23,259 nucleotides of DNA. Origin: Candidatus Electronema aureum. Lineage in GTDB: Bacteria; Desulfobacterota; Desulfobulbia; Desulfobulbales; Desulfobulbaceae. A program made the position numbers and the translations under genes. The stretch covers positions 1 through 23,259 of the forward strand of contig NQJD01000038.1 of the NCBI GenBank assembly GCA_004284765.1. Direction: 5' to 3'. The first letter of the stretch is position 1. The number at the start of each line of letters is the position of its first letter. This document shows positions 1-20,250 of this stretch, piece by piece. The notes beneath the pieces were generated by a model. The model searched no databases and was not told the DNA's origin. It worked only from the letters and a program-made list of their open reading frames with translations.

Positions 1-117
1 TCAACAATGCTGAAAGACCGGTCGCCGTCGTTTGACCGAAGGAACTAATGAGATACTCGCTGTATAAATCAAGCAGGTTCTTTTTTGTCATGCAGGTATC
101 TTACGCCATCTGGGTGC
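1..117 (-). mobile_element. IS end proximal to the transposase start. It holds the 5' part of a DDE transposase gene (IS4-family-like N-terminus) that reads out of the left edge of the window.
   Basis: ATG at 91 on the minus strand gives MTKKNLLDLYSEYLISSFGQTTATGLSALL. From memory this resembles the conserved N-terminus of IS4-type transposases (DYLISSFGxTTATGLS). The terminal repeat CTCACCTTACGCA (reverse complement of 105-117) matches 23135-23147. Confidence 0.7.
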
Positions 118-714
118 GTAAGGTGAGTTATCCAAATAATTGTAGAACTCATTCAGTTGAGAAAGCAATCCACTTAACAGGTATCTATTAAGTGGGTTTT
201 CATTTGAAAGCCGATCTATAGTTTTTCCCTCATTTGCCAAACGAGGAATGAATTTTGATTTATTCACCACAAATATTTTCCTTTCAGGAAACTTTTTATT
301 TAATCCTTTTTTCAGATCATCCACATCTTTTTTGTCTGTGTTATTTATGAGGATCACCACATTTTCATTTAATCCTTTTAGAGTGTTCACCGTCTTAATG
401 CAGGGCATTAAATCCGCCATAGATTGGTAGAAAAGAGGCACAACCAACACATCACAAATCTTGGCAATGCTCTCTATTCTCTCATCCACCCAGCCCCCGA
501 AGTCAAACACCACATCCAGATCAACGGGCAAATTAAGGCTGTCCTCGTTCCTAATGATATGCAATTGGTCTTCTGGGAAAATATCCTTGTAAATCTCAAC
601 TGTTCCGCTCTCGTAGTCGTTGGTGAAGTACAAAGCCCCCCTATGTTTGGCATAGCTTATGGCATGAGTGGTTTTTCCCTGCCCGCCTTTGGACGAATAA
701 AACAATATTTTCAT
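88..714 (-). CDS. parA: ParA/Soj-type partition ATPase. Its 3' end is replaced by IS-derived codons.
   Basis: Deviant Walker A motif SSKGGQGKTT near the N-terminus. AGGAAG Shine-Dalgarno sequence upstream of the ATG at 714. The last ~13 residues (NSPYAPRWRKIPA) are read from the IS end. With the IS removed the frame reads NYLDKF then TAA (23120-23122). Confidence 0.9.
   Translation of the reverse strand: MKILFYSSKGGQGKTTHAISYAKHRGALYFTNDYESGTVEIYKDIFPEDQLHIIRNEDSLNLPVDLDVVFDFGGWVDERIESIAKICDVLVVPLFYQSMADLMPCIKTVNTLKGLNENVVILINNTDKKDVDDLKKGLNKKFPERKIFVVNKSKFIPRLANEGKTIDRLSNENPLNRYLLSGLLSQLNEFYNYLDNSPYAPRWRKIPA
118..125. repeat. Target-site duplication copy TTATCCAA
   Basis: The same 8-mer lies at 23127-23134, directly abutting the other IS terminus. 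Confidence 0.7.
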
Positions 715-1700: not shown

Positions 1701-1997
1701 TTAAAAATCACCAAAAAATAATTTTTCTCTATCCTGCCTTTCATCCCATACCCTTAAAACTTCAATTACTTCACCTCTGATTAAGTAAATAAAAGAAAAT
1801 GGTGTTTTATGTATAGAAAATTCCATGATATTATTATCTTGAATAAGATGCCCTATATAAGGATTGTTTTTTATTAAACCTTTTGTGCTATGAAATTGTT
1901 TTTGAGCCTTCTCCAATCACTGAGGAAAAATACTTTCATAATAATACCTGAACCATTTTAAATCATTTAACGAGCTTACTAAAAACCTTATCTGCAT
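1701..1997 (-). CDS. parE: ParE/RelE-family toxin (98 aa when TGA is read as Gly)
   Basis: The track shows only the C-terminal 71 aa. Extending upstream through TGA at 1917-1919 reaches the ATG at 1997 and gives MQIRFLVSSLNDLKWFRYYYESIFPQ-G-LEKAQ...FSFIYLIRGEVIEVLRVWDERQD, a ParE-like pattern. It starts 3 nt after the antitoxin stop. Confidence 0.8.
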
Positions 1998-2000
1998 AAT

Positions 2001-2288
2001 CTATTTAGTGTTAGGAAATATATCTGGTTCAGGTGTAGGAAGTTCTTTTTTATTTCCCCATGAATCAACCCAAGTATTTACAATTTCTTCAGAGATAAAT
2101 ATTCCTTTTTCAGCCTCTTCAATAGCCTTTCTCTTCGCTGTTTTAGCCTGCAAAAAACTCTTAATTGCTTGATTGGCAAGATAGGATGGTGAGCGATCAT
2201 TTCTTTTGGCTTCCTGTTCAAGTAGTGCCTTGGTACTTGGATCAAGTCTAAGAGAAAACGGAACAGTAGCAATAGTATTCATATTCAT
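2001..2288 (-). CDS. Ribbon-helix-helix (CopG-family) antitoxin paired with ParE
   Basis: MNMNTIATVPFSLRLDPSTKALLEQEAKRNDRSPSYLANQAIKSFL is an RHH fold pattern. The start at 2288 is preferred over 2342 because a perfect palindrome operator lies at 2293-2330. Stop is TAG. Confidence 0.8.
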   Translation of the reverse strand: MNMNTIATVPFSLRLDPSTKALLEQEAKRNDRSPSYLANQAIKSFLQAKTAKRKAIEEAEKGIFISEEIVNTWVDSWGNKKELPTPEPDIFPNTK

Positions 2289-2420: not shown

Positions 2421-3683
2421 TTAGAATAATGTCTTGATGCTATCCTGTACCTTAAAATTTATTTCATTTTCAGTTAGTACCTTGTCTCTGCTGAATAAAT
2501 AAAATTCTAAAAATGTATCGGTAAATCAATTTATTTTTATTTTCTTAAAAATAGATTTTCAAATACTTGTTGAATTCAAATGCTGTATAAAATCATATTC
2601 CAAAATCTTTTTTCTATCCTCTGAAAGACTGCTGTACTTTGTTTTGAACAGATCTTTTAAGTATAATTCAAATTTCTTTTTCCTTTCGCTTTCCTCCTGC
2701 TCTATCCTCTCCTTTTCTTTCTCTAACTCCTTTTTTGATTTAAGCAATTCCTTGTTAGGCAAGTTTCAAGCATAATTATTATTTATAGCCTTTATTAAGA
2801 AAGATGAAGGATTATTTTTATTTCTTATCTTTCAATTATCAAGCTCGTTTTTGAAATACTTGTAATTGTTTTGAATAATGTTTATTCAATAGCTCTCTAT
2901 GAGTTCGTCAATTGTCTCGTTTGGAATCCACTGCAACAGTTCAGACATAAACGGACAAGCAATTTTCCCCATCCCCTCATTATTTTTTCATTCAAAAGTT
3001 TTTATGATAAATTCAATAGAATGCACCTTATTTTTATCTTTCATTTCTTTATATTCAAAAAAGAATTTTTTATGCTTAGATTCTAGTTCAACCTTTGCTG
3101 GTTCAAGAACCCTTGCCTTGAAATTTGAAAACAATTTATATTGATCCTCTTCAAGATTTAATAATCATCTTAGGAAATCAAGTGTAAAAATAAAATTATT
3201 CTTTTTATATTTTCTGTAATTTGCAAGCAATAATTGAAAAATCCTTATTGTATATGCACTCCTAAACCTTATAGCAATTGAAAAATCATAAGACAGGAAA
3301 TTATTTTTTAGATTTAACAAATATGGCTTTAGCTTAGGGTCAATTGATAATTCAACATATCATTCATTTTTAAAATATTCAGCAGAAGAAAGCCAGTTTA
3401 TTTGCAAATCCCTTTCAGGAGAAGTGAATGTTATTCACCTTCTTATAAGATTTCCAGTTATTATTTGAACCTCTTTGTAGAATTTCTTGTTTTTAATATC
3501 TAAAATATCTAGTAAATCTTTTATCTTCAGCTTATAAACTTTGAAATCTGTATCAGTTGGCTGGATTAATGATATTAAGCATAACATTATTTTTTGCTCG
3601 TTCAATGATAACTTGTATTGTGCTATAACCAAATCGTTTGACTGTGTTACCTTGTTGTTTATGTCTAATTTATCAAAAAACAT
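2421..3683 (-). CDS. Rep_3/RepB-family replication initiator Rep1 (420 aa under code 25, nine in-frame TGA)
   Basis: The N-terminal sequence SNDLVIAQYKLSLNEQKIMLCLISLI is a Rep_3 signature. I translated the frame by hand from 3683 to TAA at 2421-2423. It has no TAA/TAG but has TGA at 3435-3437, 3360-3362, 3165-3167, 2559-2561, 2526-2528 and four more sites. The read-through text continues the family pattern (G-YVELSIDPKLKPYLLNLKNNFLSYDFSIAIRFRSAYTIRIFQLL). Confidence 0.85.
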
Positions 3684-4103: not shown

Positions 4104-4358
4104 ATGACTAAAATTCATAACATATCAGTTACACTGCCATCACAATTTGAAAATCTTTTATTAAATTGAGTAAAATTAAAAGATGGTAAAGATAAAGAAA
4201 CTTTTTTAAAGGAAGAACTTGAAAGGATGTTGATTGATAAAATAGTAGAAGAGCTTGAAGATTATAATTCTGCTATAGAGGCTCACCATGATTTTATTTC
4301 TTCTTGATGAGAGACTATTTCCTTTAAAGAAATAGAGGAAAAATATAATCTTAAATAA
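4104..4358 (+). CDS. relB: RelB-type (RHH-like) antitoxin, 84 aa under code 25
   Basis: ATG at 4104, in-frame TGA at 4167-4169 and a TGA-TGA pair at 4305-4310, stop TAA at 4356-4358. The C-terminus DFISS-GG-ETISFKEIEEKYNLK resembles RelB-type tails. It lies 2 nt upstream of relE. Confidence 0.7.
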
Positions 4359-4360
4359 AA

Positions 4361-4615
4361 ATGAAGGTAGAATTTACTAAAAATGCTGAAAAAGATATTA
4401 GCAAGTTTGATAAAAATATTCAGCTATTAATTAGGAAAAATATAAAAGAAAAACTGTTGATAAATCCAGAATATTATTTAGTTCCTTTAGTTTGAAATTT
4501 AACAGGTCAGTATAAATTTCGTGTTTGAACCTATAGAATTATTTGTGAAAAGCATTATGACAGGCTTGTTATTCTGGTTGTTAGAATAAAACACAGAAAA
4601 GATGTTTATAAATAG
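4361..4615 (+). CDS. relE: RelE-family mRNA interferase toxin, 84 aa under code 25
   Basis: MKVEFTKNAEKDISKFDKNIQ...PLV-TGA-NLTGQYKFRV-TGA-TYRIICEKHYDRLVILVVRIKHRKDVYK. The two TGA (4493-4495, 4526-4528) sit where RelE families have the conserved Gly (L-x-G and R-x-G-x-YR). Confidence 0.85.
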
Positions 4616-4625
4616 TTTTTTAAAA

Positions 4626-5708
4626 TCAAACCCCAAAAGTTGCCACAGGTATTTTTTCTAAACAAATTTGACATTTTTTTCTATTCCCAGCAATCCCCCT
4701 TTCTCTAACCTTGCAAATCTCTTTTTTCAATTTTTTATTATGCCAACAAGATAATGATTCGTGATATTCTGGCAAACCTTCCTGTATTACATCCAAATTT
4801 ATTTGCTCAATTTCCTTGTTTATTCCCCCAAGCATATATTTAGGCAATAGCCCTTTTTTTTCGTTCCACCTCGCCCTAATTTCGGGCACTTTTTTTATAA
4901 AATGGTTCTCTTTGTTTAATTCACATATCTTTTTTATGTAACTATCTGCAATATTATTTTTTATACCACAAACTAAAAGCATTTTTGATAGAATATTTTC
5001 TGGATTATCTATCTCAATGATATCATCAGTTGGTTTTCTAAATAGGAAAAATTTTAAAGCAACTACAGAATTCCTGTCAATTTCTTTTTCATAACCAACA
5101 TTTAAATCACTTTTTTCGTTAATTTCCTCAATAGCTGGGTCAAGTATTCTCTCTCTAAAAGAATTGAAACGGCTATATTTTTTATCAGCACCAAGATAAG
5201 CTTTTAAAACTTTTATTTCAACATACCAAGAGCAATTTTTTTTCCACCTATTTAAATTTTCATATAATTTCCAAGTATAAGCCGACTTGAATTGATAAAC
5301 ATCAGCTAATCTATAAATAGAAAAACAATCTTTTAATTCAAGTAAATATGGCTGAATGTCTGGGTTAATTCTAAACTCAAATTCCCCCTTTCCTCTCTTA
5401 TAAATAAAACCACTGAACCAGTTCCAAAAATGCCGTTCATTACCCTTATCAAAAACAAGAGGCTTATTATTTAGCTCTAACATAGCATTATAAATGACGG
5501 TATAGGCAACTATCCTCATCCATAGGAAATATTTTACTAAATCCGTAATCTTAGCCGTGAATGTTCTATTTTCAGGCTTCCTACTGTCGTAGTGAGCCAA
5601 GCAATAGGCAATAAGGCGAAGTTCAGGCAGGTCAAACTTCGCTAACTTAGTCACAAGATCGTTTGATTTCGCAACTATTGAATTATGATCAGGTTTTTTA
5701 TTTTTCAT
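4626..5708 (-). CDS. Rep_3/RepB-family replication initiator Rep2 (360 aa) with no in-frame TGA
   Basis: MKNKKPDHNSIVAKSNDLVTKLAKFDLPELRLIAYCLAHY is a Rep_3 N-terminus. The ATG at 5708 is preferred to the track start at 5789. The gene ends TGA (4626-4628), TTT, TAA (4620-4622). The C-terminal tail carries C-x10-C-x13-C-x2-C. Confidence 0.85.
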   Translation of the reverse strand: MKNKKPDHNSIVAKSNDLVTKLAKFDLPELRLIAYCLAHYDSRKPENRTFTAKITDLVKYFLWMRIVAYTVIYNAMLELNNKPLVFDKGNERHFWNWFSGFIYKRGKGEFEFRINPDIQPYLLELKDCFSIYRLADVYQFKSAYTWKLYENLNRWKKNCSWYVEIKVLKAYLGADKKYSRFNSFRERILDPAIEEINEKSDLNVGYEKEIDRNSVVALKFFLFRKPTDDIIEIDNPENILSKMLLVCGIKNNIADSYIKKICELNKENHFIKKVPEIRARWNEKKGLLPKYMLGGINKEIEQINLDVIQEGLPEYHESLSCWHNKKLKKEICKVRERGIAGNRKKCQICLEKIPVATFGV

Positions 5709-5919
5709 ACCAAAAATATACCATTCTAAAAGAACAATTACAATATCTACTTGTTTTTTATGACCGTAAAAATGTTGTCGGCTCTTCAAGTCATTGCATA
5801 ATTTTTAAAATTTAAAATTGATTGCAAGTAAAAACAGTAATTTGAGCTATTCGACAACAATGTAACCTATTTTTTGTCGTATGTGCTTGTGTCGTACTGC
5901 CACATCGTGGCACTTGTTC

Positions 5920-5981
5920 GCAGTAAATTTGTTGTCGGCTCGCAGTAAATTTGTTGTCGTATAGCAGTAAATTTGTTGTCG
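5920..5981. repeat. Iteron array for Rep2
   Basis: GCAGTAAATTTGTTGTCG occurs three times at 5920, 5942 and 5964 (exact 22-bp period). An inverted half-site CGACAACAA and a palindrome GCCACATCGTGGC lie just upstream. Confidence 0.85.
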
Positions 5982-6065
5982 CGGTGTAATTGATCCCCAA
6001 TGAAATCAAGGGGTTTCACGAGCGGAAAAGTATAAATCTTTTTTATCTATATAAAAAAGAAAAAG

Positions 6066-6170
6066 TAAAAGGTGGCGGAGCCACAAAAAGAGCCTTGCGG
6101 CTCACTGGTGGCAAGCCACCTTTCAAATGCTTGGCTTTCGCCTCGATGGAAGCCCATAAAATGGGCTTTT
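6066..6170 (+). other. Cluster of GC-rich hairpins in a non-coding island, possibly a structured RNA or protein-binding sites
   Basis: Hairpins GTGGC-GGA-GCCAC (6072-6084), GAGCC-TTGC-GGCTC (6090-6103) and GGTGGC-AA-GCCACC (6107-6120). An outer pairing AAAGGTGGC/GCCACCTTT is possible. AAGCCCA-TAAAA-TGGGCTT followed by TT then follows. Confidence 0.3.
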
Positions 6171-6601
6171 AGAAAAACAACCCTCCAACAATTTCCCCTT
6201 TCCCTCCCATGCAAGAGTGTTTTTTCCTAGAAAAAGAAAACAAAAGCACCTTGGGGGCAAAACTTCACCTTTGAAACCCCTCTAAAAAGAGATAGAACCA
6301 CCCTCTAAGCTCTCCAAACAAGAAAAACGATAAACCCTACCTTGAGGTTCTATTTTTACAAATACGGGGCAAAAGCAGTGATTCTTGAAGGGGTGAGATA
6401 AAACCACCCTTTGACGGGAAGGAGGGGGGCGGAGAGGCAACTATGAACCATGCTTGAGTGAGGTGCTACCTACACCCCCCAAGAAAGGGGGTAGAATGGT
6501 CTTAAAATCTCTGAAAAAACAAAAAACGACCCAACCTACAGGGGGAGTCGTTCTTTTAACTACGGGGCAAATACACCCCTTCTTGAGGGTGTGTACTATT
6601 T

Positions 6602-6910
6602 TCAGGCTTCTTTCACCAAAAAGTCTTCGATGTTCCCGCCCTTCTCCACCAGTTCTGCAACCCAAACTGGACGGCGACCACGACCAGACCAAGTGTTAGA
6701 GTCCTTCTTGTACTTAATCTTGATTTTTTTCGGTTCCTTCTTGAGGCTCAAAATCTCATCCAGAGACAACCCCGCCTTCTCCGCCAACTCTTGAAACTGC
6801 TTTTTCAGCTCCGCTTTCTTCTCCTTCTGCTTTTGAAGAATTAATTCTTCAATCTCTTTTTGCAAAATAACCAATTCTTCAATTGATTTTTTTTCAAAGT
6901 CTTTGTTCAC
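6602..6910 (-). CDS. hns: H-NS-family nucleoid-associated protein
   Basis: The C-terminal TWSGRGRRPVW matches the H-NS DNA-binding loop motif, and the N-terminus is coiled-coil-like. GTG start at 6910 with AAGGAGA 8 nt upstream. The gene ends TGA (6602-6604), AAA, TAG (6596-6598). Confidence 0.8.
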   Translation of the reverse strand: MNKDFEKKSIEELVILQKEIEELILQKQKEKKAELKKQFQELAEKAGLSLDEILSLKKEPKKIKIKYKKDSNTWSGRGRRPVWVAELVEKGGNIEDFLVKEA

Positions 6911-6912
6911 GG

Positions 6913-7803
6913 CTATTCTCCTTGTTTGTGAGAGTTATTTTTTATACCCCTGATGAAATCATTTAAATCTTTGAAACCAGCATAATAACAATTCTTAGAA
7001 ATGCCTTTCAATCTCAATCAAGTCTCTTTTAAAATTCTATTTTTCGTATTTTCTCCGGCTTTGTCGTTATCAAGATAAAAATGCAGTACCGAAGGATTTA
7101 ATTTTTGAATTTTCTCTATTGCTTTTTCTGTTAAACAAACCGAATTTAAAATGATAATTTGCTCGTTTAAAAACTGCTTTTTAGTATATGTTAGATAGGA
7201 AAGAAAATCAATAAATCATTCAAAAATATAGATTTCTCTGTTCCCCTCTTTTCCTTTGATTGTTGTTATATCTTTCGGGGAGAAACAACCCTTGAAAAGG
7301 TTGTTTCTTATTTCGTATCATCCAGAATCATTTTTGAAACCAATTGCAAAATAATCTTTACTTCCTGCTTTGTAGTAAATTTCAACTAAATAATTTTTAG
7401 CTATAGAAATATTTATTTTTCTTTCCTGTAAATAATTAATAAGAGGAAAATATGACAATGGTTTAATTTCTTTTATTAAAATTTTACTTTTTGGCTCAAT
7501 TTCTTTTTTATCTTTTGTTAATACTTGCCTAAAACCAGTGCTGAAAATACTTTGAAGTTTTTTCAATGCTCCTGAAATATCTGTTTGAAACTGTAAAATT
7601 ACAAGGTCAATGATTGTGCCACCTATACCTTCCCCGTGATCATACCAAACATTCAAAGTTTTATTCACCTTAAAAGAGGCAGTTTTTTCTTTTCTTAAAG
7701 GTGAAAAATACCAAAGTTCATTTTTCTGCACTATTTTTGGAGAAAATCAGAGGAATAATAAATAATCCTCAATAGGGATTTGTTTCGCTTGTTTGAAGTC
7801 CAT
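6913..7803 (-). CDS. Toprim-domain DNA primase of the Bacteroides mobilizable-element type, 296 aa under code 25
   Basis: ATG at 7803, TGA at 7747-7749, 7318-7320, 7216-7218 and 7018-7020, stop TAG at 6913-6915. The translation reads MDFKQAKQIPIEDYLLFL-G-FSPK...ELWYFSPLRKEKTASFKVNKTLNVWYDHGEGIGGTIIDL, then ...REIYIFE-G-FIDFLSYL (Toprim EG motif) and YLDNDKAGE. Confidence 0.8.
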
Positions 7804-7857
7804 TTTTTTTATGAAAATAATCTTTATTTTAACTAAAAAATAGGTTATGCAAATGGA

Positions 7858-8070
7858 TTATTTTTTTCTTTTCACCAGTAACTTTTTTCTTCTATCTTCA
7901 CGGGAAATTCAAGAGAAGAAATTTTGCAAAGTTTTGATACTTCGACGACGAGTTAATAATAATGTGATGCAATTGTAATTTTTGTTTTTCTTGTAAATAT
8001 AGAACTCATCAACACAAGAAAATATTCATACTCTCAAACTTCTCTTTATAATCTGCCGTCCGGTTTCCAT
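7858..8070 (-). CDS. Small basic hypothetical protein (70 aa under code 25)
   Basis: ATG at 8070, two in-frame TGA, stop TAA at 7858-7860. It has 71 codons without TAA/TAG in very AT-rich DNA. No family recognised. Confidence 0.35.
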
Positions 8071-8129
8071 ATTGACTAATAAAAGCCAAAAATTGCATAT
8101 CACATGCTTTATTATTTAATTTATAGTTT

Positions 8130-8486
8130 ATGAAAGCAGAAACAGTTATCTTGTGCGATTTGTTACAATGTGGTTTTTTAGATGTAGAATATTTGTCTGA
8201 TATTTGCGAAAGGAATGAAATAGATATTGATACTCAAGAAATAAAGGAAAGTTTTTGAGAATTGCATATGAATGTTTTAATATATGATGCTTTAAGGCAA
8301 ATAGCGGATAAGTTCTTAGACGAAAATTTATATGAAATATGAGAAATTTTAGAGGTGTCAGATATGAAAGAATACATTGCTGAAAATGAGCTTTATGAAA
8401 TCTATACCAATTATTTAGACAGTCATCTATGGTTTAAAGATCAAGAAATTCAAAATTTATTTGAAAATTCAAAGTACCGGAGATAA
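8130..8486 (+). CDS. Strongly acidic hypothetical protein (118 aa under code 25)
   Basis: ATG at 8130, TGA at 8256-8258 and one more, stop TAA at 8484-8486 followed by a terminator hairpin. By my count it has about 28 Asp/Glu against about 10 Lys/Arg. Confidence 0.6.
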
Positions 8487-8499
8487 TCCGGTGCTTTTT
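8474..8499 (+). terminator. Rho-independent terminator
   Basis: Stem ACCGGA/TCCGGT (8476-8481/8487-8492) extended by G-C and T-G pairs, loop GATAA, then TTTTT. Confidence 0.6.
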
Positions 8500-8595
8500 C
8501 TTTTTTGAAAAACTATTAACCAATCTTAGCATATTTTTGGGAGAAGCAAAATATATTTTGCAAATTTCCCTCGGCTTAGTACACTGCTTTACATC

Positions 8596-8700
8596 CTCGG
8601 CTTTGCCGAGCCGATGGGGGGGGGCAAGATTGAAAGTTTCACCTAAACTTTCATCTTGCAAGGCGGGGACACCCCCCTTGACCCCCCGTTTTGCCGTTGG
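8596..8700. promoter_or_regulatory. Candidate oriT
   Basis: It lies immediately upstream of mobC-relaxase. Hairpin CTCGGC-TTT-GCCGAG (8596-8610), a G9 run, a 16-bp imperfect inverted repeat at 8624-8639/8644-8659, and tandem GAC(A)CCCCCC units. The nick site was not identified. Confidence 0.45.
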
Positions 8701-8728
8701 CAATACACAATCTTTTTAAAAAATAACA

Positions 8729-9103
8729 ATGAAAGACAGAAAAGAATACCAAAAGGAATACCTTAAAAAATGGAGAAAAGAAAATAAGGACATTCATATA
8801 TATTTTACACCAGAAGAATACAAATTTTTTGAGGAACTATCAAAAAAGTATGAAGTAAAAACAAGCTCACTTATAAAAACAATGGCAATTTCTCAGGCAA
8901 ACAAAACTCTTTGCTTGCCTAAAGAAATGCAAGAAAAACTAAACGAGTTCGTTTTTCTCATAAGAAACATAGCAAACAATGTGAACCAAATAGCCAGACA
9001 CTCCAACACCATTAAAACCTTAACCGATGAACACGGTTTATTATCCTACCTCAAACAGCTTGAAGAAGCCGTTAAAGAATATGTGAAAAAAGAAAACAAA
9101 TGA
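8729..9103 (+). CDS. mobC: MobC-type relaxosome accessory protein
   Basis: IRNIANNVNQIARHSN matches the MobC signature (NxNQiAr..N). The gene ends TGA (9101-9103), TTA, TAA (9107-9109). There is an ATGA overlap with the relaxase start. Confidence 0.85.
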   Translation: MKDRKEYQKEYLKKWRKENKDIHIYFTPEEYKFFEELSKKYEVKTSSLIKTMAISQANKTLCLPKEMQEKLNEFVFLIRNIANNVNQIARHSNTIKTLTDEHGLLSYLKQLEEAVKEYVKKENK

Positions 9104-10023
9104 TTATAAAATCAATGTCCAGAAAAGAGCCGAGCTTTGCCCAGCTCTCAAATTATATTTTCAAAGGAGCAGACAACAAATACACCTACACAAGAAACCT
9201 TTATGAAAGGGATACTGAAAGCATAACAAGAGAATTTGAAAAAAACTTTAAGCACCTAAAAAGGCAAAAAAACTCAAATGCAATTTACCACGAAATAATA
9301 TCTATCTCAAAAGCAAGCATTGATACAGAAAAACAAAAAGAAAAACTTTTGGAAATAGCTGGTGAATATGCGGAAATAAGGGCGAAAAATTGCCTTGTTT
9401 TCGGCTCCCTTCACGAAGCAGGCAACAACTTTCATTTTCATTTAATGATTAGTTCAAATGGGATCGAACAGAACAGAAATCACTACCTTTCAAAAAAACA
9501 ATTTGACGAAATAAAGAAGGGCTTAGAAAGGTATGTTTTGGAGAAATACCCTGAACTAGACCAAAAACGGGTTATGAACCAAGAAAGGAAAATAGAAGCC
9601 GTATCGCAAAAAGAATTTGAACTCAAAAAAAGAACTGGTGAGATAACAAAAAAAGAATCTATCCAATATCGATTGACTCAAATATTTAATAGATCATCCA
9701 CTAAAGAAATTTTTTTTACTAACCTTGAAAAAGATAAAATTCAAATTTATATCAGAGGAAACACCGTAGGTTTTATAGATTTGTCGGACGACAAGCAGAG
9801 GAAATATAGATTAAAAAAATTAGGATTATCCGAGGAATTTAATAAAATGAGTGAGGTGCTTGCTCGTGAAGTTCCTCACTGTCAGGAACCAGCAAGCAAG
9901 ACCTTTTCAAGGCAGGAAAAACAGGAACAGAAAAAAGAGGAAGCCAGACCGACAAAAGAACAAGAGGCTTTAGATGAACTGAAAAAAATAAGAGATAGTA
10001 AAATTAAAATCAAAAAGATGTGA
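9100..10023 (+). CDS. Relaxase/mobilization nuclease. It is 307 aa under the standard code and would extend to 10263 (387 aa) under code 25.
   Basis: An N-terminal Tyr region (LSNYIFKG) and a histidine triad HEAGNNFHFHLMIS. The TGA at 10021-10023 is in frame with the ORF at 10069-10263, with no intervening TAA/TAG. Confidence 0.85.
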   Translation: MIIKSMSRKEPSFAQLSNYIFKGADNKYTYTRNLYERDTESITREFEKNFKHLKRQKNSNAIYHEIISISKASIDTEKQKEKLLEIAGEYAEIRAKNCLVFGSLHEAGNNFHFHLMISSNGIEQNRNHYLSKKQFDEIKKGLERYVLEKYPELDQKRVMNQERKIEAVSQKEFELKKRTGEITKKESIQYRLTQIFNRSSTKEIFFTNLEKDKIQIYIRGNTVGFIDLSDDKQRKYRLKKLGLSEEFNKMSEVLAREVPHCQEPASKTFSRQEKQEQKKEEARPTKEQEALDELKKIRDSKIKIKKM

Positions 10024-10340: not shown

Positions 10341-11807
10341 ATGATAATTTTTAAATTAATCTTTGGCTGGATCATAGATATTCTCCTTACGGGAGGCAAA
10401 TATTTATTATACGGACGGATACTGAAAAATAAGACGGGTTCAAAAATACTTACCCCTAAAGAGATAAAAAGTTTTCTATCTCCAGCACACAAAGGGCTTT
10501 TAATTGATGGAGCCAAAAACCGACTTTCGGTTGCCGAGAGCTTTCAAAATGTTTGTTTTGTGGCAAGGGTAGGAGCAGGAAAAACCACTAAATATATTAT
10601 TCCAAATGTGCTTGATAAAGGCAGACAAAATGTTTCAATGGTGGTGAATGATCCTAAGGGTGAAGTCTATTCTCTAACCGCAGGATATTTACAAGCTAAC
10701 GGGTATAAAATTATAGTTTATAATCCACATAATCTTCTTAATTCTAATTTATTTAATCCTCTTTTAGAGGCAAAAAATCACATAGAACTCGAACAAATAG
10801 CAGAAACTTTAATTTGGATAGGAAACCCAGGAGATAAAGACCCATTTTGGAACAATGGAGCAAGTAGAATAATTTCAGTTTTATTAAAATGCCTTAGTTT
10901 TTCTAAAAATAAACAAAATTTCAATTTGCCTAATCTCTATTATCTTCTTCAAAATTTCGGAGAAATGGGGGAGGGGTTAGATAAGTGGATTTCTCGGAAT
11001 TGCTGGGATCCGACTTGCCCCAACGACAGGTATGTTTTAAACGAATGGAAAGGGGTTTTGACCGGCAACCAAGAAACCGTGCAAAGTTTTGTAGGGGTCT
11101 GTTTAACCTCTCTCAAAGCTCTTTCAAATAGAGACTTACAAGGATTTTTCAGCGATTCAGACTACAAACTTACAAATTTAAGGAAACAAAAAACAGCTAT
11201 ATTTTTCATCACACCACCTGAACACCAGCAATATTATTCATTTGTTACCAGCCTTTTTTTCCGTGCTGTTTTCAACGAATGTATGAGGGATCAACATTTA
11301 AGAGGGAAAAGCCTACCTGTATATATCCTATATGATGAGTTCGGCAATTCATATATCACCGATTTTGTTTCTGTGGCAAATACCATTAGAGGGTATGGTG
11401 TTTCTTTATCTATTGTTTTGCAATCAATTTCACAACTTGCTATGAAATACGGACAAAACACATCTGAAGCAATTCAAGGAGCTTTAAATACTAATATATG
11501 CCTAAGTTCTTCTGATCCTGTAACATCAAAATTCTTTTCTGAACTTTCTGGAAGGGTGAGAGAAAGGCAGGTCAGGGATATAGAAAAAAACATAGAAGAC
11601 TACAGGGAATACAACTTACTCAATACAGATGATGTAAGAACAATGGGACAGGATGAAGCCTTAATAATTTCTAAAAACCGCTATCCTGTAAGATTAAAAG
11701 TAGTTCCGTATTATAATAATAGAATTTTTAAAAAAGCATCTTTATTCCCGAAGCCTAATTTTTCTAATGATGAGAGAAAAATTAATGTTTCATTTGAACA
11801 GTTATAA
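10341..11807 (+). CDS. Type IV coupling protein (TraG/TraD/VirD4 family)
   Basis: Walker A VGAGKTT, Walker B-like VYILYDEFGN, one N-terminal hydrophobic segment. Stop is TAA. About 31 Gly codons by my count, none of them TGA. Confidence 0.9.
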   Translation: MIIFKLIFGWIIDILLTGGKYLLYGRILKNKTGSKILTPKEIKSFLSPAHKGLLIDGAKNRLSVAESFQNVCFVARVGAGKTTKYIIPNVLDKGRQNVSMVVNDPKGEVYSLTAGYLQANGYKIIVYNPHNLLNSNLFNPLLEAKNHIELEQIAETLIWIGNPGDKDPFWNNGASRIISVLLKCLSFSKNKQNFNLPNLYYLLQNFGEMGEGLDKWISRNCWDPTCPNDRYVLNEWKGVLTGNQETVQSFVGVCLTSLKALSNRDLQGFFSDSDYKLTNLRKQKTAIFFITPPEHQQYYSFVTSLFFRAVFNECMRDQHLRGKSLPVYILYDEFGNSYITDFVSVANTIRGYGVSLSIVLQSISQLAMKYGQNTSEAIQGALNTNICLSSSDPVTSKFFSELSGRVRERQVRDIEKNIEDYREYNLLNTDDVRTMGQDEALIISKNRYPVRLKVVPYYNNRIFKKASLFPKPNFSNDERKINVSFEQL

Positions 11808-12464
11808 ATGAATAACTTTGTGTTGTATCTAATAATTTTTTGTTTTGGGTATGTTGCTGGGAAAATTCTATCAAAATTGCATAGATTTTTCTTTCTTATA
11901 GGGTGTTTCCTGTTGATGCCTAAAATATATCAATACAGAAGCCAACATTTATTGATTGTTACTGTTGTTTTTATTCTCGGTGTTGCAAAAGGTTATAAGC
12001 TGTTTCCTAAATTTACAGAAATGCTGGAAGAAATAAAAATATCTATTCATCTTTTCTTTGCTAAGAGGAGAGAAATATCATACAGAACAGCAAAGGAAGA
12101 CTGGAAAGAACAAGAACACATAAATAGCATGAAAGCAGAGGAACTAAGGCTGAAAGAACAGGAGCTATACAAACAAGCCGAGGAAATCAAACGGCAGAAA
12201 CATCGTGCAGACGAGGACTTGAGGAAGGCACGGGAAAAGCAGGCAAAAAATACAAGCTATCCAAACACCTTGCAGGAAGCCTTTGAGGTTCTGGGAACCA
12301 GATCAGGGCTAACAGTCGAGGAATACAAAAGAATTTGGAAACAAGAGGCTTTGAAATATCACCCAGATAGAACAAAAGGGCTTGGTGAAAGATTGCAAAA
12401 ACAAGCGGAAAGTGAAATGAAATCAATAAATAAGGCTTGGGAGATTATAAAAAATAAAGTCTAA
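11808..12464 (+). CDS. Membrane-anchored J-domain (DnaJ-like) protein
   Basis: Two to three N-terminal hydrophobic helices, a charged coiled-coil region, and a C-terminal J-domain with KYHPDR (HPD motif) and flanking helices. The ATG immediately follows the coupling protein TAA. Confidence 0.8.
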   Translation: MNNFVLYLIIFCFGYVAGKILSKLHRFFFLIGCFLLMPKIYQYRSQHLLIVTVVFILGVAKGYKLFPKFTEMLEEIKISIHLFFAKRREISYRTAKEDWKEQEHINSMKAEELRLKEQELYKQAEEIKRQKHRADEDLRKAREKQAKNTSYPNTLQEAFEVLGTRSGLTVEEYKRIWKQEALKYHPDRTKGLGERLQKQAESEMKSINKAWEIIKNKV

Positions 12465-12553: not shown

Positions 12554-15500
12554 ATGTCCAAACAGCCCGCCTCCTTTCGGTCTTTGTGGTCTTTCCTTCC
12601 AGTTTCGATTCTGTTTCTTCTTACAATTTATGAGGGTGTTGCTTTAGCTTGTACCCCGAAAATTGTTTGGGTGGCGGATAACAATATCCCCAATGTCATT
12701 GAAGCAGGAACGGCGGTCACTTTCAAATGGGAAGTGGTCAATAAGTCTTCCTGCAATGCCACCGACCTTCGGGTTGCCTTCTATTCTACCAGCCTAGAAA
12801 GCCCTACTGCCGATTTTGGCGGTGATAATAACCCTTCTTTTTCGCTGAAACCTTGGGAAAAAGGCATTATTGAAGCAAAAATGCCTATTGCTCCAAAAGA
12901 GATAGAGAAATACTTTGAATTAAAATTTGATATTGTCAAAGCTGACGGCACCCCGCTTGTTCCGTTGGCATTAGGACGGTTAGGGGCTGAATTTACAATA
13001 ATCCCCCTTACTGAACCTCCACCAACTCAAAGCTGCACGGCAAATCTTGTATGGGAGGAACCGAAATATGATGCAAAAAAGGTTGCTCCCAGTGTGCCGG
13101 TTCTTTTTGTTTGGACGGTTACAAATATTTCTACAGATTGTGATGCTATAAATTATAGTCCTGTATTTTTTTATGCCGAACCTTCCAGTCAAACCGCAAA
13201 TTATAACGGCACAAGCCACCCTCATTTTGATGCAAAGAGAGGGAAAACAGTCCAAATTCAAGCAAATGTTTTGCTTACACCAGCAGAAGAAGGGAAATAT
13301 AAAGCGGTATTTAATATTTACGATCATAACGGCGATGCTTTGCCTGTTTCGGGTGAAAAGGAACCTCTTTATGCCGAATTTGAGGTCAGCAAAAGTATTC
13401 CGCCCCCGAAAGAACCTTGTGACAGTGTACTTGCTCCGGTGGTGCAGAGTGTTGATTTGGTTCAGCTCGGCAACGACGGCAAGGTGCTTGTAACTGCCAA
13501 TGTTACCAACAGTAGCGGAGAATTAACCGTTACACTGGATTTGAATGGTAAAACCTACACCATGAGTAAGCTCAATTCTGGGGCTTATGGGGCAACAGGC
13601 GAAGGCAATAAGGCGGGAAAAAACGATTACACAGTAACAGCAGGAAACGGCTGCAAATTTCACGGGCTTGACTTCGTTGACGGGGTGCTTTCGTCATACA
13701 ATATGGGCACCTGCTGTCAGGATGCCGATATGTCCTGCAAAAACCAGAGAAAATGCGGACGAAGCCAGTTTGCCGCTTCCAAAGGTCATCCAGTCACCAC
13801 CTACACAGGCAACTTTGCTGAAACCCTGACCGATGGAGCCGTTGCAGGGATAGGCGATGCCGACCTTTTTATAACCAGAGCCTACAACTCCGCCGCCGCT
13901 CTTGCCGATGCCGCCTCTGTTTACAGGCATACAGAGGCGGGAAGGGAAAAGGTTGCAGGCCCGCCCCAGTATTTCGGCACAGGCTGGTCTTCCAATTTGG
14001 ATTCCTTCCTTCTGGCTATGGATTATGCCCCTCTCTACGAGGGAGTGCAGATCAGGTTCCCAGACGGCCACACCCAGAACTTTGAGAAAAGCGGCTCCAG
14101 TTACAAGTCTTCCACACCAGACAACTTTGATGAGCTAACGAAGGAAGGCAACAATTTCGTCCTGAAAAGGAAAAGCAGTCTGGAAACTTGGAGCTTCGGC
14201 TCGGACGGCAAGTTGCTCCAAACCAGCGACCAAAACGGCAACAAAGTTGCCTACACTTATGGCGGCGGATGCCTTGAGAAAATCAGCAGCGGCAGCCGAG
14301 CTGTAACCTTCACTTGCGATGCCAAGGGGCATATCACCAAAGCCCAACTCCCAGAAAATATAGTTATTTCTTACGAGTATAACGATGACCTGCTGACCGC
14401 CATGACGGACGGCAGAGGCAATAAGACCCAGTACACCTACGACGAAAACAAGCAGCTAACCAAAATCAGCACCCCGCTTGGAACACCTTCGGTTCAAATG
14501 AGCTATGACGACCGCTACCGTGTTTCCAGTCAGACCGTGGGGGAAAGCGAGCTGTATGCCTTTGCCTATCAGGGCGAGGATGCGGCAGAAAGCACCACCA
14601 TAACCGACAGCTACGGCAATGCCACCGTGCAGAAGCACGATGAAAAAGGTCGTCAGGTTGAAATAACCCACCCCGACGGCACGACCGAAGAATTTAAGCA
14701 CGACGACCACAACAGCCGCACCTACTACAAAGACCCAGCAGGCGGAGAGTACAGCTATACCTATGATGATAAGGGTAATATGCTTGCTCTGGACGGTCCG
14801 CTTGGGCTGCATAAGGAGTGGAGCTACAGCCAAAGCAACCTTGTGACCGCAACCACGGAAAAGGTGGATGATACCAAAAATAGGAAATTCACCTTTGAGT
14901 ACGATGCCAAAGGCAACCTCTCCAAATTCTGCCTGCCGTTGCAAAACTGCGGCACCGTCACCTACACCGCAGCAGGTCTGCCAGAAAAACTGACCGATCT
15001 TCGGGGTAATATCTCGGTCAATGCCTACAATGCCGAAGGCGACCTCGTGAGTGTGACCGACCCCGAAGGGGCGGTTACAAAGTTCAGCCATGACGGGCTT
15101 GGGCGGACGGTCGGCAAAACCAAACCGCTCGGCAATGCCTACCGCTATGCCTACGACCAAAATTCCAACCTGACCGCCGTTGACGGCCCGCTTGGCTTCC
15201 ATATGGGCTACAGCTACGATGCCAACAACAACCTTGCGGAAAGCACCGATCCGAACGGCGGCAAAAAACGGTACACCTACACCGCCTCTGGCAGTATGAG
15301 TTCCGAGCAGAACCAGCTTGGCTTTGTGACCTCGTTTGCTTACGGGCTGATGAACGAGCGGACAGGGATGACCGATGCCGAGGGCAGGCAGTGGAGCTAT
15401 GCCTATGACTCCATGCTTCGGGTTAAAGAGGTGAGCGGCCCGCTCGGACACCGTCAGGGCTTTGTTTACAATGCCCTTGGAATGATCACCGATGCCACCG

Positions 15501-18772: not shown

Positions 18773-18829
18773 TTTGACTTTCAATATAATTTGATAGAAT
18801 GGAAATATTTATTTTGTAATAAATATAAT

Positions 18830-19141
18830 ATGAATAACAACAGATTGACTACAGCATGGTACTGTAGGGTTTGTGGCTTGAATCAAAATTATATTCATTG
18901 GGATGTTGATAAACAACTTCCACCTACTTATGATTTTTGTGATTGTTGTAATGCTCAGTTTGGTTATAATGATTCAAATAATATAGCTATATCTATTTAT
19001 AGAAAAAGATGGATTGATTCTGGAGCTGAATGGAGCAATAGAACCAGAAGAATGGAAGAATGGAATCTTAAGGAACAATTAAAGAATATTCCTGATGAAT
19101 ATAGAGATAATTTTGTATTATCTTTGATTTCTGAGAAATAA
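18830..19141 (+). CDS. Putative cognate immunity protein, Cys-rich (zinc-ribbon-like)
   Basis: It lies immediately downstream of the toxin tip and has the same AT-rich composition. C-x2-C (CRVC) and C-x-C-C (CDCC) pairs sit 23 residues apart. The ATG at 18830 is preferred to the TTG at 18791. Stop is TAA. Confidence 0.55.
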   Translation: MNNNRLTTAWYCRVCGLNQNYIHWDVDKQLPPTYDFCDCCNAQFGYNDSNNIAISIYRKRWIDSGAEWSNRTRRMEEWNLKEQLKNIPDEYRDNFVLSLISEK

Positions 19142-19187
19142 TTATTTAACCTTCGTGATAATTACGATTATTCGCCGCCTGCGAATG

Positions 19188-19610: not shown

Positions 19611-19861
19611 AGATCAAGCTCCCGTGGATATTCCTGTTGCCGTTGAAACGGATCGTCAGCATCAAGTTTGGGACAGCTTAACAGAAATTCTGTAAATGAT
19701 TGTTTATGCGATGTTAATTTTTCATAATCACGGACTGAAAGCAAAACTGCCGTAGCAACACCCCGCCGTAGAACATATTGCGGTCCTTGTGTCAGAGCTT
19801 CATTGACGAACTGACTGAATTTATTCTTTGCATCCTGAAGTTTCCAGTTTGTTTTGATCAT
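19607..19861 (-). CDS. Phd/YefM-family antitoxin paired with VapC
   Basis: MIKTNWKLQDAKNKFSQFVNEALTQGPQYVLRRGVATAVLLSVRDYEKL. The start at 19861 is preferred to the long track ORF. Stop is TGA. Confidence 0.85.
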   Translation of the reverse strand: MIKTNWKLQDAKNKFSQFVNEALTQGPQYVLRRGVATAVLLSVRDYEKLTSHKQSFTEFLLSCPKLDADDPFQRQQEYPRELDL

Positions 19862-20248: not shown

Positions 20249-20250
20249 GC

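What the first reader, a model, noticed from the sequence alone, without database searches (positions are those of the whole stretch)
4620..9109. Three TGA-free genes all end TGA-NNN-TAA/TAG (backup stop exactly one codon later)
The three endings are:
- Rep2: TGA TTT TAA (4628-4620, minus strand).
- H-NS: TGA AAA TAG (6604-6596, minus strand).
- MobC: TGA TTA TAA (9101-9109).

In each gene this is the only TGA, and it sits at the penultimate codon. Under the standard code the proteins stop at TGA. Under code 25 they gain only Gly plus one residue. Three out of three is unlikely by chance even in AT-rich DNA. It fits either ancestral standard-code stops retained after transfer into a TGA=Gly host, or selection for termination that works under both codes.
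Basis: seen in the sequence. Interest (0 to 1): 0.7.

Follow-up and report, generated by a model that had tools for sequence, protein, structure and literature searches.

The report
Plasmid genes obeying two genetic codes
The three TGA codons are the ordinary, ancestral stop codons of standard-code plasmid genes and the nearby second stop looks like coincidence, but the same plasmid, found with cable bacteria, also carries conserved genes in which TGA means glycine, so one DNA molecule holds two gene sets written in two genetic codes.

Summary
They were picked from 10 TGA-free genes in the window whose first stop is TGA. The other seven reach the next TAA/TAG only after 7 to 148 codons, or beyond the window end. 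Chance gives this pattern with p about 0.01, or 0.05-0.07 after allowing for free choice of offset.

The MobC case is forced. Its TTA-TAA lies inside the conserved relaxase start, ATG ATT ATA AAA. Homologues of all three proteins end at the TGA position. In related plasmids that position holds TGA or TAA interchangeably, and the distance to the next stop varies from 0 to 18 codons. So these are real ancestral stops, and the backup stop shows no sign of selection.

The window is a circular plasmid of about 23 kb, binned with Candidatus Electronema aureum, a standard-code cable bacterium. Its genes fall into two classes:
- Class B has no internal TGA and uses TGA as a stop.
- Class A (Rep1, a Toprim primase-like gene, toxin-antitoxin genes) is full of in-frame TGAs at conserved glycine positions.

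Both classes are under purifying selection across at least nine related plasmids, one from the axenic isolate Desulfotalea psychrophila. No plasmid carries a tRNA. A plasmid alternating between standard-code and TGA=Gly hosts is the leading explanation, but it is unproven.

The parts
4620..5708 (-). Rep2, a Rep_3 iteron-type replication initiator (360 aa, ATG at 5708). It has no internal TGA. The stop TGA is at 4626-4628, followed by TTT TAA (4620-4625).
   Evidence: Pfam Rep3_N and Rep3_C. 100% identical to an NCBI protein of a Ca. Electronema aureum MAG. Homologues end at the same residue.
5918..5983 (.). Three tandem 22-bp iterons upstream of Rep2, with a fourth copy at 5761-5782.
   Evidence: the repeat finder.
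6596..6910 (-). H-NS-like protein (102 aa). It has no internal TGA. The stop TGA is at 6602-6604, followed by AAA TAG (6596-6601). Its start lies 2 nt after the stop of the TGA-containing Toprim gene.
   Evidence: Pfam Histone_HNS matches residues 66-99. PDB alignments to Ler, H-NS and StpA. Orthologues in L051, L052, L055 and L056.
8729..9109 (+). MobC/NikA-like relaxosome accessory protein (124 aa). The stop TGA is at 9101-9103 and overlaps the relaxase ATG (9100-9102). The following TTA TAA (9104-9109) lies inside relaxase codons 2-4.
   Evidence: Pfam MobC and NikA-like. DNA comparison with L051 and the D. psychrophila plasmid. Homologue C-termini.
9100..10023 (+). MOB relaxase (307 aa), TGA-free, ending in TGA. 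A small ORF follows in the same frame at 10069-10263, with AAGGAGG plus GTG.
   Evidence: Pfam Relaxase. Alignment with L051. In the D. psychrophila plasmid the relaxase ends in TAA/TAG and the small ORF is separate.
10341..12464 (+). Type IV coupling protein (488 aa) and a J-domain protein (218 aa). Both are TGA-free and both end in TAA.
   Evidence: Pfam T4SS-DNA_transf, DnaJ, codon counts.
2421..3683 (-). Rep1, a second Rep_3 initiator (420 codons) with 9 in-frame TGA read as Gly. Its own repeats (43-bp spacing) lie at 3807-3933.
   Evidence: dN/dS is 0.08 against L051.
6913..7803 (-). Toprim / CHC2-like primase-type protein (296 codons) with 4 in-frame TGA. Three of them fall on near-invariant Gly columns of 118 standard-code homologues; the fourth falls on a variable column.
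4104..4615 (+). Antitoxin-like ORF (4104-4358, 3 TGA) and RelE/ParE-like toxin (4361-4615, 2 TGA, one inside an RVxTYRII stretch).
   Evidence: The match of RVxTYRII to the RelE/ParE RVGDYRII motif rests on my own knowledge.
1701..2282 (-). RHH antitoxin-like ORF (2001-2282, no TGA, only 2 Gly codons) and ParE-like ORF (1701-1997, 1 TGA).
8130..8486 (+). Conserved ORF of unknown function (118 codons, 2 in-frame TGA).
20897..22064 (-). Rep3, a third Rep_3 initiator (314 aa, TGA-free). It ends in TGA, and the next TAA/TAG is 148 codons away. Its 4-5 iterons of about 22 bp lie at 21932-22064.
12554..20520 (.). TGA-free cargo: Rhs toxin (12554-18772, core about 52% GC, ends in TGA); putative immunity ORF (18830-19141); VapC/PIN (19188-19610, minus strand); Phd (19607-19861, minus strand, ATGA overlap with the PIN start); RelB (19997-20248); YafQ (20251-20520).
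88..714 (-). ParA-like ATPase, TGA-free. Its last residues differ from those of its orthologues because about 250 bp of extra sequence lies at the window ends.

Best explanation
Shown: the three TGA codons are the original stop codons of three standard-code backbone genes (Rep2, H-NS, MobC) of a circular, mobilizable plasmid of about 23 kb with three replication genes, found with cable bacteria.

Inferred: in a Desulfobulbales host these TGAs are read as stops by release factor 2. The TAA/TAG one codon later is not a selected device. For Rep2 and H-NS it is a lineage-specific accident in AT-rich flanking DNA. For MobC it follows from the overlapping relaxase start, ATG ATT ATA AAA.

Shown: what makes the endings look special is a property of the whole plasmid family. 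Its genes fall into two classes that have evolved side by side.
- Class B never uses internal TGA, and uses TGA or TAA/TAG interchangeably at the ancestral stop position. It comprises Rep2, Rep3, H-NS, ParA, MobC, relaxase, coupling protein, J-domain protein, Rhs, VapBC and RelB/YafQ.
- Class A uses TGA for roughly half of its glycine codons. It comprises Rep1, the Toprim primase-like gene, RelE and ParE modules and orf8130, plus HEPN, DUF2958-like and DUF7706 genes in relatives.
Both classes are under purifying selection.

Inferred: the plasmid lineage is therefore translated under two decoding regimes. The most likely way is alternation between standard-code Desulfobulbales hosts and a TGA=Gly (code 25, Gracilibacteria/Absconditabacteria-type) host, reached by mobilization. 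Class A would supply functions needed only in the second host.
For: Anatomy and counts.

The TGA sits at the ancestral stop position:
- Rep2.
- MobC.
- H-NS.

The stop codon varies at a fixed position, and the tail length varies:
- Rep2: window TGA+1 codon, L061 TAA, L062 TGA+8, L052 TAA (with the same downstream DNA as L062), L051 TGA+5, L053 TGA+4, L056 TAA/TAG.
- H-NS: TGA+1, +2, +16, +18, or no TGA at all.
- MobC: in L051 a TAA precedes the same TGA TTA TAA. In the D. psychrophila plasmid, at 49% protein identity, TGA TTA TAA recurs on the MIIK relaxase start.

Chance estimates. Ho and Hurst 2019 (PMC6764699) found no selection for additional stop codons in eubacteria.

The two classes:
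- Window: 21 TGA against 27 GGN in class A; 0 TGA against 90 GGN in the AT-rich class B genes. Fisher p = 6.5e-12.
- D. psychrophila plasmid: 10 against 13 in class A; 0 against 133 in class B. Fisher p = 6.5e-10.
- The same partition holds in L051-L056 and L062.

TGA means Gly: three of the four Toprim TGA columns of the window gene, and a fourth such column in its L051 orthologue, are Gly in 89-116 of 118 standard-code homologues. One Rep1 column is Gly in 39 of 50. TGA never aligns with Trp.

Purifying selection on both classes, with dS about 1-2 between the window and L051.

Hosts:
- The contig is an NCBI record of a Ca. Electronema aureum MAG.
- Relatives occur in a single-filament genome of Electrothrix sp. 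GM3_4.
- Relatives also occur in the complete small plasmid of axenic D. psychrophila LSv54.

No tRNA or Rfam RNA on any of these plasmids.

Three separate iteron sets, one per rep gene.
Against: - No TGA=Gly organism has been linked to these plasmids. The paper searches found nothing connecting cable bacteria with Gracilibacteria or Absconditabacteria.
- The D. psychrophila plasmid persists in a pure culture without any such partner.
- I could not inspect host chromosomes for a UCA-anticodon tRNA-Gly.
- Counting both MobC ends, TGA-NNN-TAR is nominally enriched in the family (5 of 25, p 0.006-0.03).
- Rep2 tails are all 8 codons or fewer, so weak selection for short read-through tails is not excluded.
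- Class B synonymous sites are somewhat richer in GC than class A sites. This could also reflect gene flow from host-like DNA.
Confidence: 0.6

Rival explanations
1. The plasmid lives in a TGA=Gly (code 25) cell. Rep2, H-NS and MobC are recent immigrants whose old TGA stops are now read as Gly, so each protein gains Gly plus one residue.
For: In-frame TGA does mean Gly in other genes of the same molecule. Under that code the three tails in this window would be only two residues long.
Against: - Class B genes have stayed free of internal TGA over dS of about 1 or more, while neighbouring class A genes use TGA for about half of their Gly codons. The chance of no TGA in the AT-rich class B genes under class A usage is about 3e-23.
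- The stop position holds only TGA or TAA/TAG in relatives, never a sense codon.
- In such a host Rep3, YafQ, the relaxase and Rhs would carry tails of 60-148 residues.
- The backbone is found in standard-code Desulfobulbales, including an axenic isolate.
Confidence: 0.1
2. The backup stop is a selected feature. TGA followed by TAA/TAG one codon later has been selected so that the three proteins terminate almost identically under both codes.
For: Nominal p = 0.01 in the window. In the family 5 of 25 TGA ends show the pattern. Two or three such ends occur in the D. psychrophila plasmid. If the plasmid sees two codes, such selection is conceivable.
Against: - The pattern is not conserved in any orthologue of Rep2 or H-NS.
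- MobC's second stop is dictated by the relaxase N-terminus.
- Without MobC the family-wide excess disappears (p 0.09-0.24).
- Seven other TGA-ended genes in the window have long tails.
- No general selection for additional stop codons is seen in eubacteria.
Confidence: 0.1
3. One standard-code host with conditional UGA-to-Gly suppression. The plasmids stay in Desulfobulbales. Class A genes are translated only when a suppressor tRNA-Gly(UCA) is supplied by the chromosome, a phage or another element. This would resemble code-switching phages.
For: - The plasmid is maintained in axenic D. psychrophila with intact class A ORFs.
- A relative was recovered from a single-filament genome of a cable bacterium.
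- Mixed-code genomes are known in recoded phages (my own knowledge: Ivanova et al. 2014; Borges et al. 2022).
Against: - No tRNA is present on any family member or on the large D. psychrophila plasmid.
- No sequence context surrounds the class A TGAs.
- UGA-to-Gly suppression in a cell with release factor 2 has no natural precedent that I know of.
- Host chromosomes could not be searched.
Confidence: 0.15
4. Artefact or decay. The contig is a chimeric assembly of two plasmids, or the TGA-containing ORFs are pseudogenes.
For: The contig comes from a short-read MAG. About 250 bp at the window ends and the ParG-like gene look damaged.
Against: - The same interleaved order recurs in independent assemblies from NCBI, JGI, ENA and Logan, and in a finished isolate plasmid. 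This includes Toprim (class A) ending 2-22 nt before H-NS (class B).
- Class A ORFs of 296-420 codons at about 27% GC contain no TAA/TAG, and their dN/dS is 0.08-0.31.
Confidence: 0.02

Closest known systems
Genetic code 25 (UGA = Gly) of Gracilibacteria (BD1-5) and Absconditabacteria (SR1)
   Same: In class A genes TGA falls at conserved glycine positions and exchanges with GGN codons between orthologues.
   Different: Only part of the molecule follows this code. The rest treats TGA as a stop. The plasmids are found with, and in one case inside, standard-code Desulfobulbales. No code-25 organism has been linked to them.
Stop-codon-recoded bacteriophages with mixed-code genomes (my own knowledge: Ivanova et al. 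2014; Borges et al. 2022)
   Same: One mobile DNA molecule carries a block of genes readable in the standard code and a block that needs a reassigned stop codon.
   Different: Here the element is a plasmid and the reassignment is TGA to Gly, not TAG to Gln or TGA to Trp. The two classes are interleaved, even within one operon. No suppressor tRNA or release-factor gene is encoded.
Additional ('fail-safe', tandem) stop codons downstream of leaky stops
   Same: An in-frame TAA/TAG lies two codons after a TGA stop in three genes.
   Different: There is no conservation in orthologues and no excess once the overlap-constrained MobC is removed. Ho and Hurst 2019 found no such selection in eubacteria.
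Desulfotalea psychrophila LSv54 'plasmid small' (NC_006140.1)
   Same: It shares the Toprim / MobC / relaxase / coupling protein / J-domain / ParA backbone at 38-52% protein identity. It has the same split into TGA-free genes and TGA=Gly genes, and the same TGA TTA TAA at the MobC-relaxase overlap.
   Different: It is smaller (14.7 kb), has a single TGA-free rep gene, and lacks the Rhs, H-NS and Rep1 genes. RefSeq annotates its Toprim gene as two fragments. A 2014 review notes only its unusually low GC content.
Multi-replicon, broad-host-range mobilizable plasmids
   Same: Three iteron-type rep cassettes, plus a MobC-relaxase-coupling protein module without a mating-pore system.
   Different: One of the three initiators can be made full length only where TGA is a sense codon.

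Membership tests
Selected backup (tandem) stop codons | An in-frame stop lies within a few codons after the primary stop. | tested here: met
   TGA TTT TAA, TGA AAA TAG and TGA TTA TAA.
Selected backup (tandem) stop codons | The frequency exceeds what flank composition predicts. | tested here: inconclusive
   p = 0.010 nominal. p = 0.05 for any shared offset. p = 0.067 without MobC. In the family, 3 of 23 without MobC gives p 0.09-0.24.
Selected backup (tandem) stop codons | The second stop is conserved in orthologues. | tested here: not met
   Rep2 tails are 0, 0, 0, 1, 4, 5 and 8 codons. H-NS tails are 1, 2, 16 and 18 codons, or there is no TGA. Only MobC keeps the pattern, because of the relaxase start.
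Code-25 (TGA = Gly) coding genes: Rep2, H-NS, MobC | In-frame TGA at positions where homologues have Gly. | tested here: not met
   These genes have no internal TGA. Their single TGA aligns with the stop of homologues.
Code-25 (TGA = Gly) coding genes: Rep1, Toprim, RelE-like, ParE-like, orf8130 | Long ORFs are open only if TGA is a sense codon; TGA aligns with Gly; purifying selection acts on them. | tested here: met
   9, 4, 2, 1 and 2 in-frame TGA with no TAA/TAG. Gly columns. dN/dS 0.08-0.31.
Code-25 host lineage (Gracilibacteria / Absconditabacteria) | The element resides in a genome that has tRNA-Gly(UCA) and lacks release factor 2. | not testable with these tools
The only hosts named by records are Desulfobulbales.
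Recoded mobile element with its own decoding machinery (as in recoded phages) | A suppressor tRNA or release-factor gene is encoded on the element. | tested here: not met
   ARAGORN finds no tRNA in the window, L001, L002, L051-L056 or L064-L067. There is no Rfam match above the gathering score.
Rep_3 iteron replicon (Rep2) | Rep3_N and Rep3_C domains, with tandem iterons next to the gene. | tested here: met
   Pfam E-values 4.7e-28 and 7.7e-16. Three 22-bp iterons at 5918-5983.
H-NS family | A C-terminal H-NS DNA-binding domain preceded by a coiled-coil N-terminus. | tested here: met
   PF00816 at E 2.5e-13, covering profile positions 2-38 of 38. PDB matches to Ler, H-NS and StpA. The coiled-coil was not tested.
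MobC / NikA-like relaxosome accessory protein | A MobC or NikA-like domain, with the gene directly upstream of and coupled to a relaxase gene. | tested here: met
   PF05713 and PF21983 at or above their cut-offs. ATGA overlap with the relaxase (PF03432) at 9100-9103.

The most novel reading that the evidence does not exclude
This is a natural shuttle plasmid family that crosses a genetic-code boundary. It alternates between standard-code Desulfobulbales (cable bacteria, Desulfotalea) and TGA=Gly Patescibacteria that presumably live on them. One TGA-free gene set works in the first host, or in both. A TGA-locked set (Rep1 replicon, primase, addiction modules) is expressed only in the second host.
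Probability: 0.35. Interest if true: 0.9.

Novelty: new variant of a known kind. Interest (0 to 1): 0.7.

Why it matters
An altered genetic code is usually seen as a barrier to gene exchange. It is now being engineered as one.

Here a plasmid lineage has kept two sets of working genes, each following a different meaning of TGA, over long evolutionary time. It carries no tRNA of its own. If the plasmids really move between hosts with different codes, they would show:
- how mobile DNA can cross that barrier;
- that unrecognised code-25 partners of cable bacteria and their relatives may exist;
- that codon choice can act as a host-specific expression switch.

If a standard-code host reads these TGAs as glycine instead, that would be a new natural decoding mechanism. 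One member sits in a culturable isolate, D. psychrophila LSv54, so the question can be tested directly.

For the narrow finding the lesson is practical. A TGA just before a TAA/TAG in AT-rich DNA is not evidence of selection until orthologues are compared.

Tried and rejected
- Megablast of 4000-12500 against PLSDB found nothing.
- The genome-collection scan with the single Rep2 protein found nothing. An alignment was needed.
A TGA-free fragment was used instead. Its nearest named relatives were Bacteroidota mobile elements, which did not identify a code-25 host.
- The Rep1 search gave only unnamed Logan contigs, plus distant Firmicutes and Desulfobacterota Rep proteins.
- Idea: the relaxase TGA (codon 307) is a sense codon, because 80 conserved codons follow in frame. 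Rejected. A conserved AAGGAGG plus GTG start lies 15 codons downstream. In the D. psychrophila plasmid the relaxase ends in TAA/TAG and the small ORF is separate.
- Idea: TGA = Trp (code 4). Rejected by the alignments. The Logan translations of these contigs do show W at those positions.
- Idea: a read-through context around class A TGAs. None was found.
- Idea: Shine-Dalgarno usage separates the classes. The signal is weak: 0 of 12 class A genes against 6 of 19 class B genes, and the MOB genes also lack it.
- tRNA and Rfam searches were negative.
- Ten literature searches found nothing on cable-bacteria plasmids, on a link between cable bacteria and code-25 bacteria, or on plasmids with two codes.
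- Assembly chimera and pseudogene explanations were rejected (see the rival explanations).

Full report
**1. The observation**

The three endings are present exactly as described.
- Rep2, minus strand: GTT TGA TTT TAA, at 4631-4620.
- H-NS, minus strand: GCC TGA AAA TAG, at 6607-6596.
- MobC, plus strand: AAA TGA TTA TAA, at 9098-9109.

Each gene has no other in-frame TGA. Pfam confirms all three identities: Rep3_N plus Rep3_C, the H-NS C-terminal domain, and MobC/NikA-like.

The phrase 'three out of three' is a selection effect. Fifteen genes in the window have no internal TGA. Ten of them have TGA as their first stop. For the other seven, the next in-frame TAA/TAG lies 7, 13, 60, 79, 122 or 148 codons away, or beyond the window end.

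Using the base composition of each 3' flank:
- At least 3 of 10 with exactly one intervening codon: P = 0.010.
- At least 3 sharing any one offset from 0 to 5: P = 0.05.
- At least 2 of 9 once MobC is set aside: P = 0.067.

**2. MobC is not an independent case**

The MobC TGA overlaps the relaxase start (ATGA at 9100-9103). The following TTA TAA lies inside relaxase codons 2-4, ATG ATT ATA AAA (M I I K).

The related plasmid L051 reads AAA TAA TGA TTA TAA. There MobC stops one codon earlier at a TAA, yet the TGA TTA TAA string is still present. The Desulfotalea psychrophila plasmid shares only 49% MobC identity. It also reads ..KI-TGA-TTA-TAA on a relaxase that begins MIIK. The relaxase N-terminus therefore dictates the second stop.

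**3. Homologues end at the TGA**

- Rep2: seventy homologues end at the same ..FGV/FGI/FGL residue. In 31 loci fetched from genomes and metagenomes the stop there is TGA 17 times, TAA 12 and TAG 2. None shows TGA-NNN-TAR.
- MobC: homologues of 61% identity or more all end at residue 124.
- H-NS: the Pfam domain ends 3 residues before the TGA, and solved Ler, H-NS and StpA domains align up to that point.

Within the clade of closest relatives the stop position is fixed, but the codon and the tail vary.
- Rep2: TGA+1 codon (window), TAA (L061), TGA+8 (L062), TAA (L052), TGA+5 (L051), TGA+4 (L053), TAA/TAG (L056). L052 and L062 share the same downstream DNA.
- H-NS: TGA+1, +2, +16 or +18; in L051, GCC TAA.

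This is how interchangeable stop codons behave. It is not how a conserved two-stop device behaves.

Across the family, 5 of 25 TGA-ended class B termini have one intervening codon (p 0.006-0.03). Without the two MobC ends it is 3 of 23 (p 0.09-0.24). Ho and Hurst 2019 found no selection for additional stop codons in eubacteria, only a preference for T at +4 after TGA. Two of the three window cases have T at +4.

**4. What the window is**

Rep2 is 100% identical to an NCBI protein on a 23,259-bp contig of a Candidatus Electronema aureum MAG, with locus tags CDV28_138xx. This is a freshwater cable bacterium of the Desulfobulbaceae and uses the standard code. Identical DNA occurs in two Logan assemblies. 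Synteny with L051 joins the two window ends, so the molecule is a circle of about 23 kb.

It carries:
- three Rep_3 initiators, each with its own iteron array;
- ParA;
- a MobC-relaxase-coupling protein module without a mating-pore system;
- an H-NS-like gene;
- an Rhs toxin with a core of about 52% GC;
- several toxin-antitoxin pairs.

**5. Two classes of genes**

Reading ORFs delimited by TAA/TAG only reveals six further genes with in-frame TGA:

| Gene | In-frame TGA |
|---|---|
| Rep1 (420 codons) | 9 |
| Toprim/CHC2-like primase-type gene | 4 |
| Antitoxin-like ORF (4104-4358) | 3 |
| RelE-like toxin (4361-4615) | 2 |
| ParE-like ORF (1701-1997) | 1 |
| orf8130 | 2 |

I call these class A, and the TGA-free genes class B.

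Class A has 21 TGA against 27 GGN codons. The AT-rich class B genes have 0 TGA against 90 GGN. Fisher p = 6.5e-12, and the chance of no TGA under class A usage is about 3e-23.

TGA means glycine here, not tryptophan.
- Three of the window's four Toprim TGA columns are Gly in 89, 110 and 114 of 118 standard-code homologues, and a TGA column of the L051 orthologue is Gly in 116 of 118. These include the motifs GGYE[I/L]RN, FEGF and DNDxAGE. The window's fourth column is variable.
- The conserved Rep1 column is Gly in 39 of 50 homologues.
- Between orthologues TGA most often exchanges with GGN and never with TGG.

The two classes are interleaved. The Toprim stop (class A) lies 2 nt from the H-NS start (class B).

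**6. The partition is old, conserved and not an artefact**

The same gene order and the same partition recur in:
- L051 (JGI, 23.1 kb);
- L052 (ENA);
- L053-L055 and L061 (Logan);
- L062 (JGI);
- L056, a contig of Electrothrix sp. GM3_4. The Electrothrix genomes of that study were built from individually picked, whole-genome-amplified filaments.

Between the window and L051, synonymous sites are saturated (dS 0.9-2.0) and both classes are under purifying selection. dN/dS is 0.08-0.31 for class A and 0.05-0.22 for the class B backbone.

Over that distance TGA and GGN swap freely in class A. Class B gained no TGA at all, and kept only TGA or TAA/TAG at its stop positions.
- A resident of a TGA=Gly cell would not show the class B pattern.
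- A resident of a standard-code cell would not keep 300-420-codon class A frames open at about 27% GC.

**7. A finished example in a pure culture**

A tblastn search of the relaxase against PLSDB hit the complete 14.7-kb small plasmid of D. psychrophila LSv54 (Desulfobulbales, an isolate, standard code).

It shares the Toprim / MobC / relaxase / coupling protein / J-domain / ParA backbone at 38-52% identity, and it shows the same split.
- Toprim: 297 codons, 5 in-frame TGA, two at the same Gly motifs as in the window. RefSeq annotates the gene as two fragments.
- A DUF2958-like ORF has 5 TGA.
- The 15 other genes have 0 TGA against 133 GGN. Fisher p = 6.5e-10.

A 2014 review noted only that this plasmid has the largest GC gap to its host chromosome among plasmids of cold-active bacteria.

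Neither this plasmid, nor the strain's 121-kb IncP-like conjugative plasmid, nor any other family member encodes a tRNA. Rfam finds nothing relevant. The class A TGAs have no special sequence context.

**8. Interpretation**

Shown:
- The three TGAs sit at ancestral stop positions of genes that treat TGA as a stop.
- The one-codon-later TAA/TAG is not conserved.
- The plasmid family holds two co-evolving gene sets that obey different meanings of TGA.

Inferred: the lineage is translated under two decoding regimes.

The reading I favour is alternation between Desulfobulbales hosts and a code-25 (Gracilibacteria/Absconditabacteria-type) host. My estimate is about 0.35 for this specific reading. 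Several features fit it:
- The multiple replicons, one of which is locked by TGA.
- Separate addiction modules in each class.
- A self-encoded relaxase and coupling protein.
- The extreme AT-richness.
- The epibiotic lifestyle and widespread type IV secretion genes of Patescibacteria (lifestyle partly from my own knowledge).

The main rival is a single standard-code host with conditional UGA-to-Gly suppression supplied in trans. The pure-culture plasmid and the single-filament recovery favour that rival. I could not test it, because host chromosomes were out of reach.

I found no paper describing either situation for plasmids.

**9. Verdict**

The narrow finding is ordinary. The TGAs are real stops, and the extra stop is coincidence plus an overlap constraint. 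The finding did, however, point at a genuinely unusual property of the element: a plasmid family written in two genetic codes. That deserves follow-up, and it can be tested in a culturable host.

Noticed in passing
window 10021-10263; L051 3163-3411: The relaxase TGA (codon 307) is followed in the same frame by about 80 codons conserved between the window and L051. A conserved AAGGAGG plus GTG lies 15 codons downstream. It is probably a separate small protein, as in the D. psychrophila plasmid. Under code 25 it would be fused to the relaxase.
   Followed up: partly
window 1-127 and 23135-23259; 22834-23134: About 250 bp at the two window ends has no counterpart in L051 or L052. It replaces the last residues of ParA. 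The neighbouring ParG-like gene is frameshifted and has an in-frame TGA. The cause could be an insertion or a contig-end artefact.
   Followed up: partly
window 12554-19141: The Rhs toxin has a core of about 52% GC and an AT-rich C-terminal tip. Its TGA stop is followed in the same frame by a putative immunity ORF (ATG at 18830). A TGA=Gly cell would make a toxin-immunity fusion.
   Followed up: no
window 5990-6595: A non-coding stretch of about 42% GC lies between the Rep2 iterons and H-NS. It has runs of G and C and two repeat pairs (43 nt at 6353 and 6551; 16 nt at 6289 and 6395). There is no Rfam match.
   Followed up: no
window 19156-20516 against L051 15302-16662: The VapBC and RelB/YafQ block is 95% identical between the window and L051, while the rest of the plasmid is 67-88% identical. 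The VapC cluster (90% identity or more) includes a protein of Desulfobulbus sp. F1. This points to recent exchange of the toxin-antitoxin cassette.
   Followed up: partly
window-wide: GC at fourfold-degenerate sites differs by class and by gene. Class A is 0.09-0.22. The MOB and Rep2 genes are 0.23-0.33. H-NS and ParA are about 0.5. The Rhs core is 0.63. This holds despite saturated synonymous divergence between relatives.
   Followed up: no
L064 (NC_006140.1) 6844-7737 and 8634-8945: RefSeq splits the TGA-containing Toprim gene of the D. psychrophila small plasmid into two 'genes' and does not annotate the DUF2958-like ORF. Logan translated relatives of Rep1 with W at TGA (code 4).
   Followed up: yes
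L054 4234-5034: In L054 the TGA-free ParG-like ORF runs without a stop into a DUF7706 region that has 7 in-frame TGA. This looks like a class B to class A fusion in one reading frame.
   Followed up: no
window 2293-2330; 782-828; 902-940: A perfect 38-nt palindrome lies at the start of the RHH/ParE operon. Two imperfect palindromes lie upstream of ParA. They are possible operator or centromere-like sites.
   Followed up: no
start regions of 31 genes in the window, L051 and L064: None of 12 class A genes has a Shine-Dalgarno-like motif upstream, against 6 of 19 class B genes. The MOB genes also lack one.
   Followed up: partly
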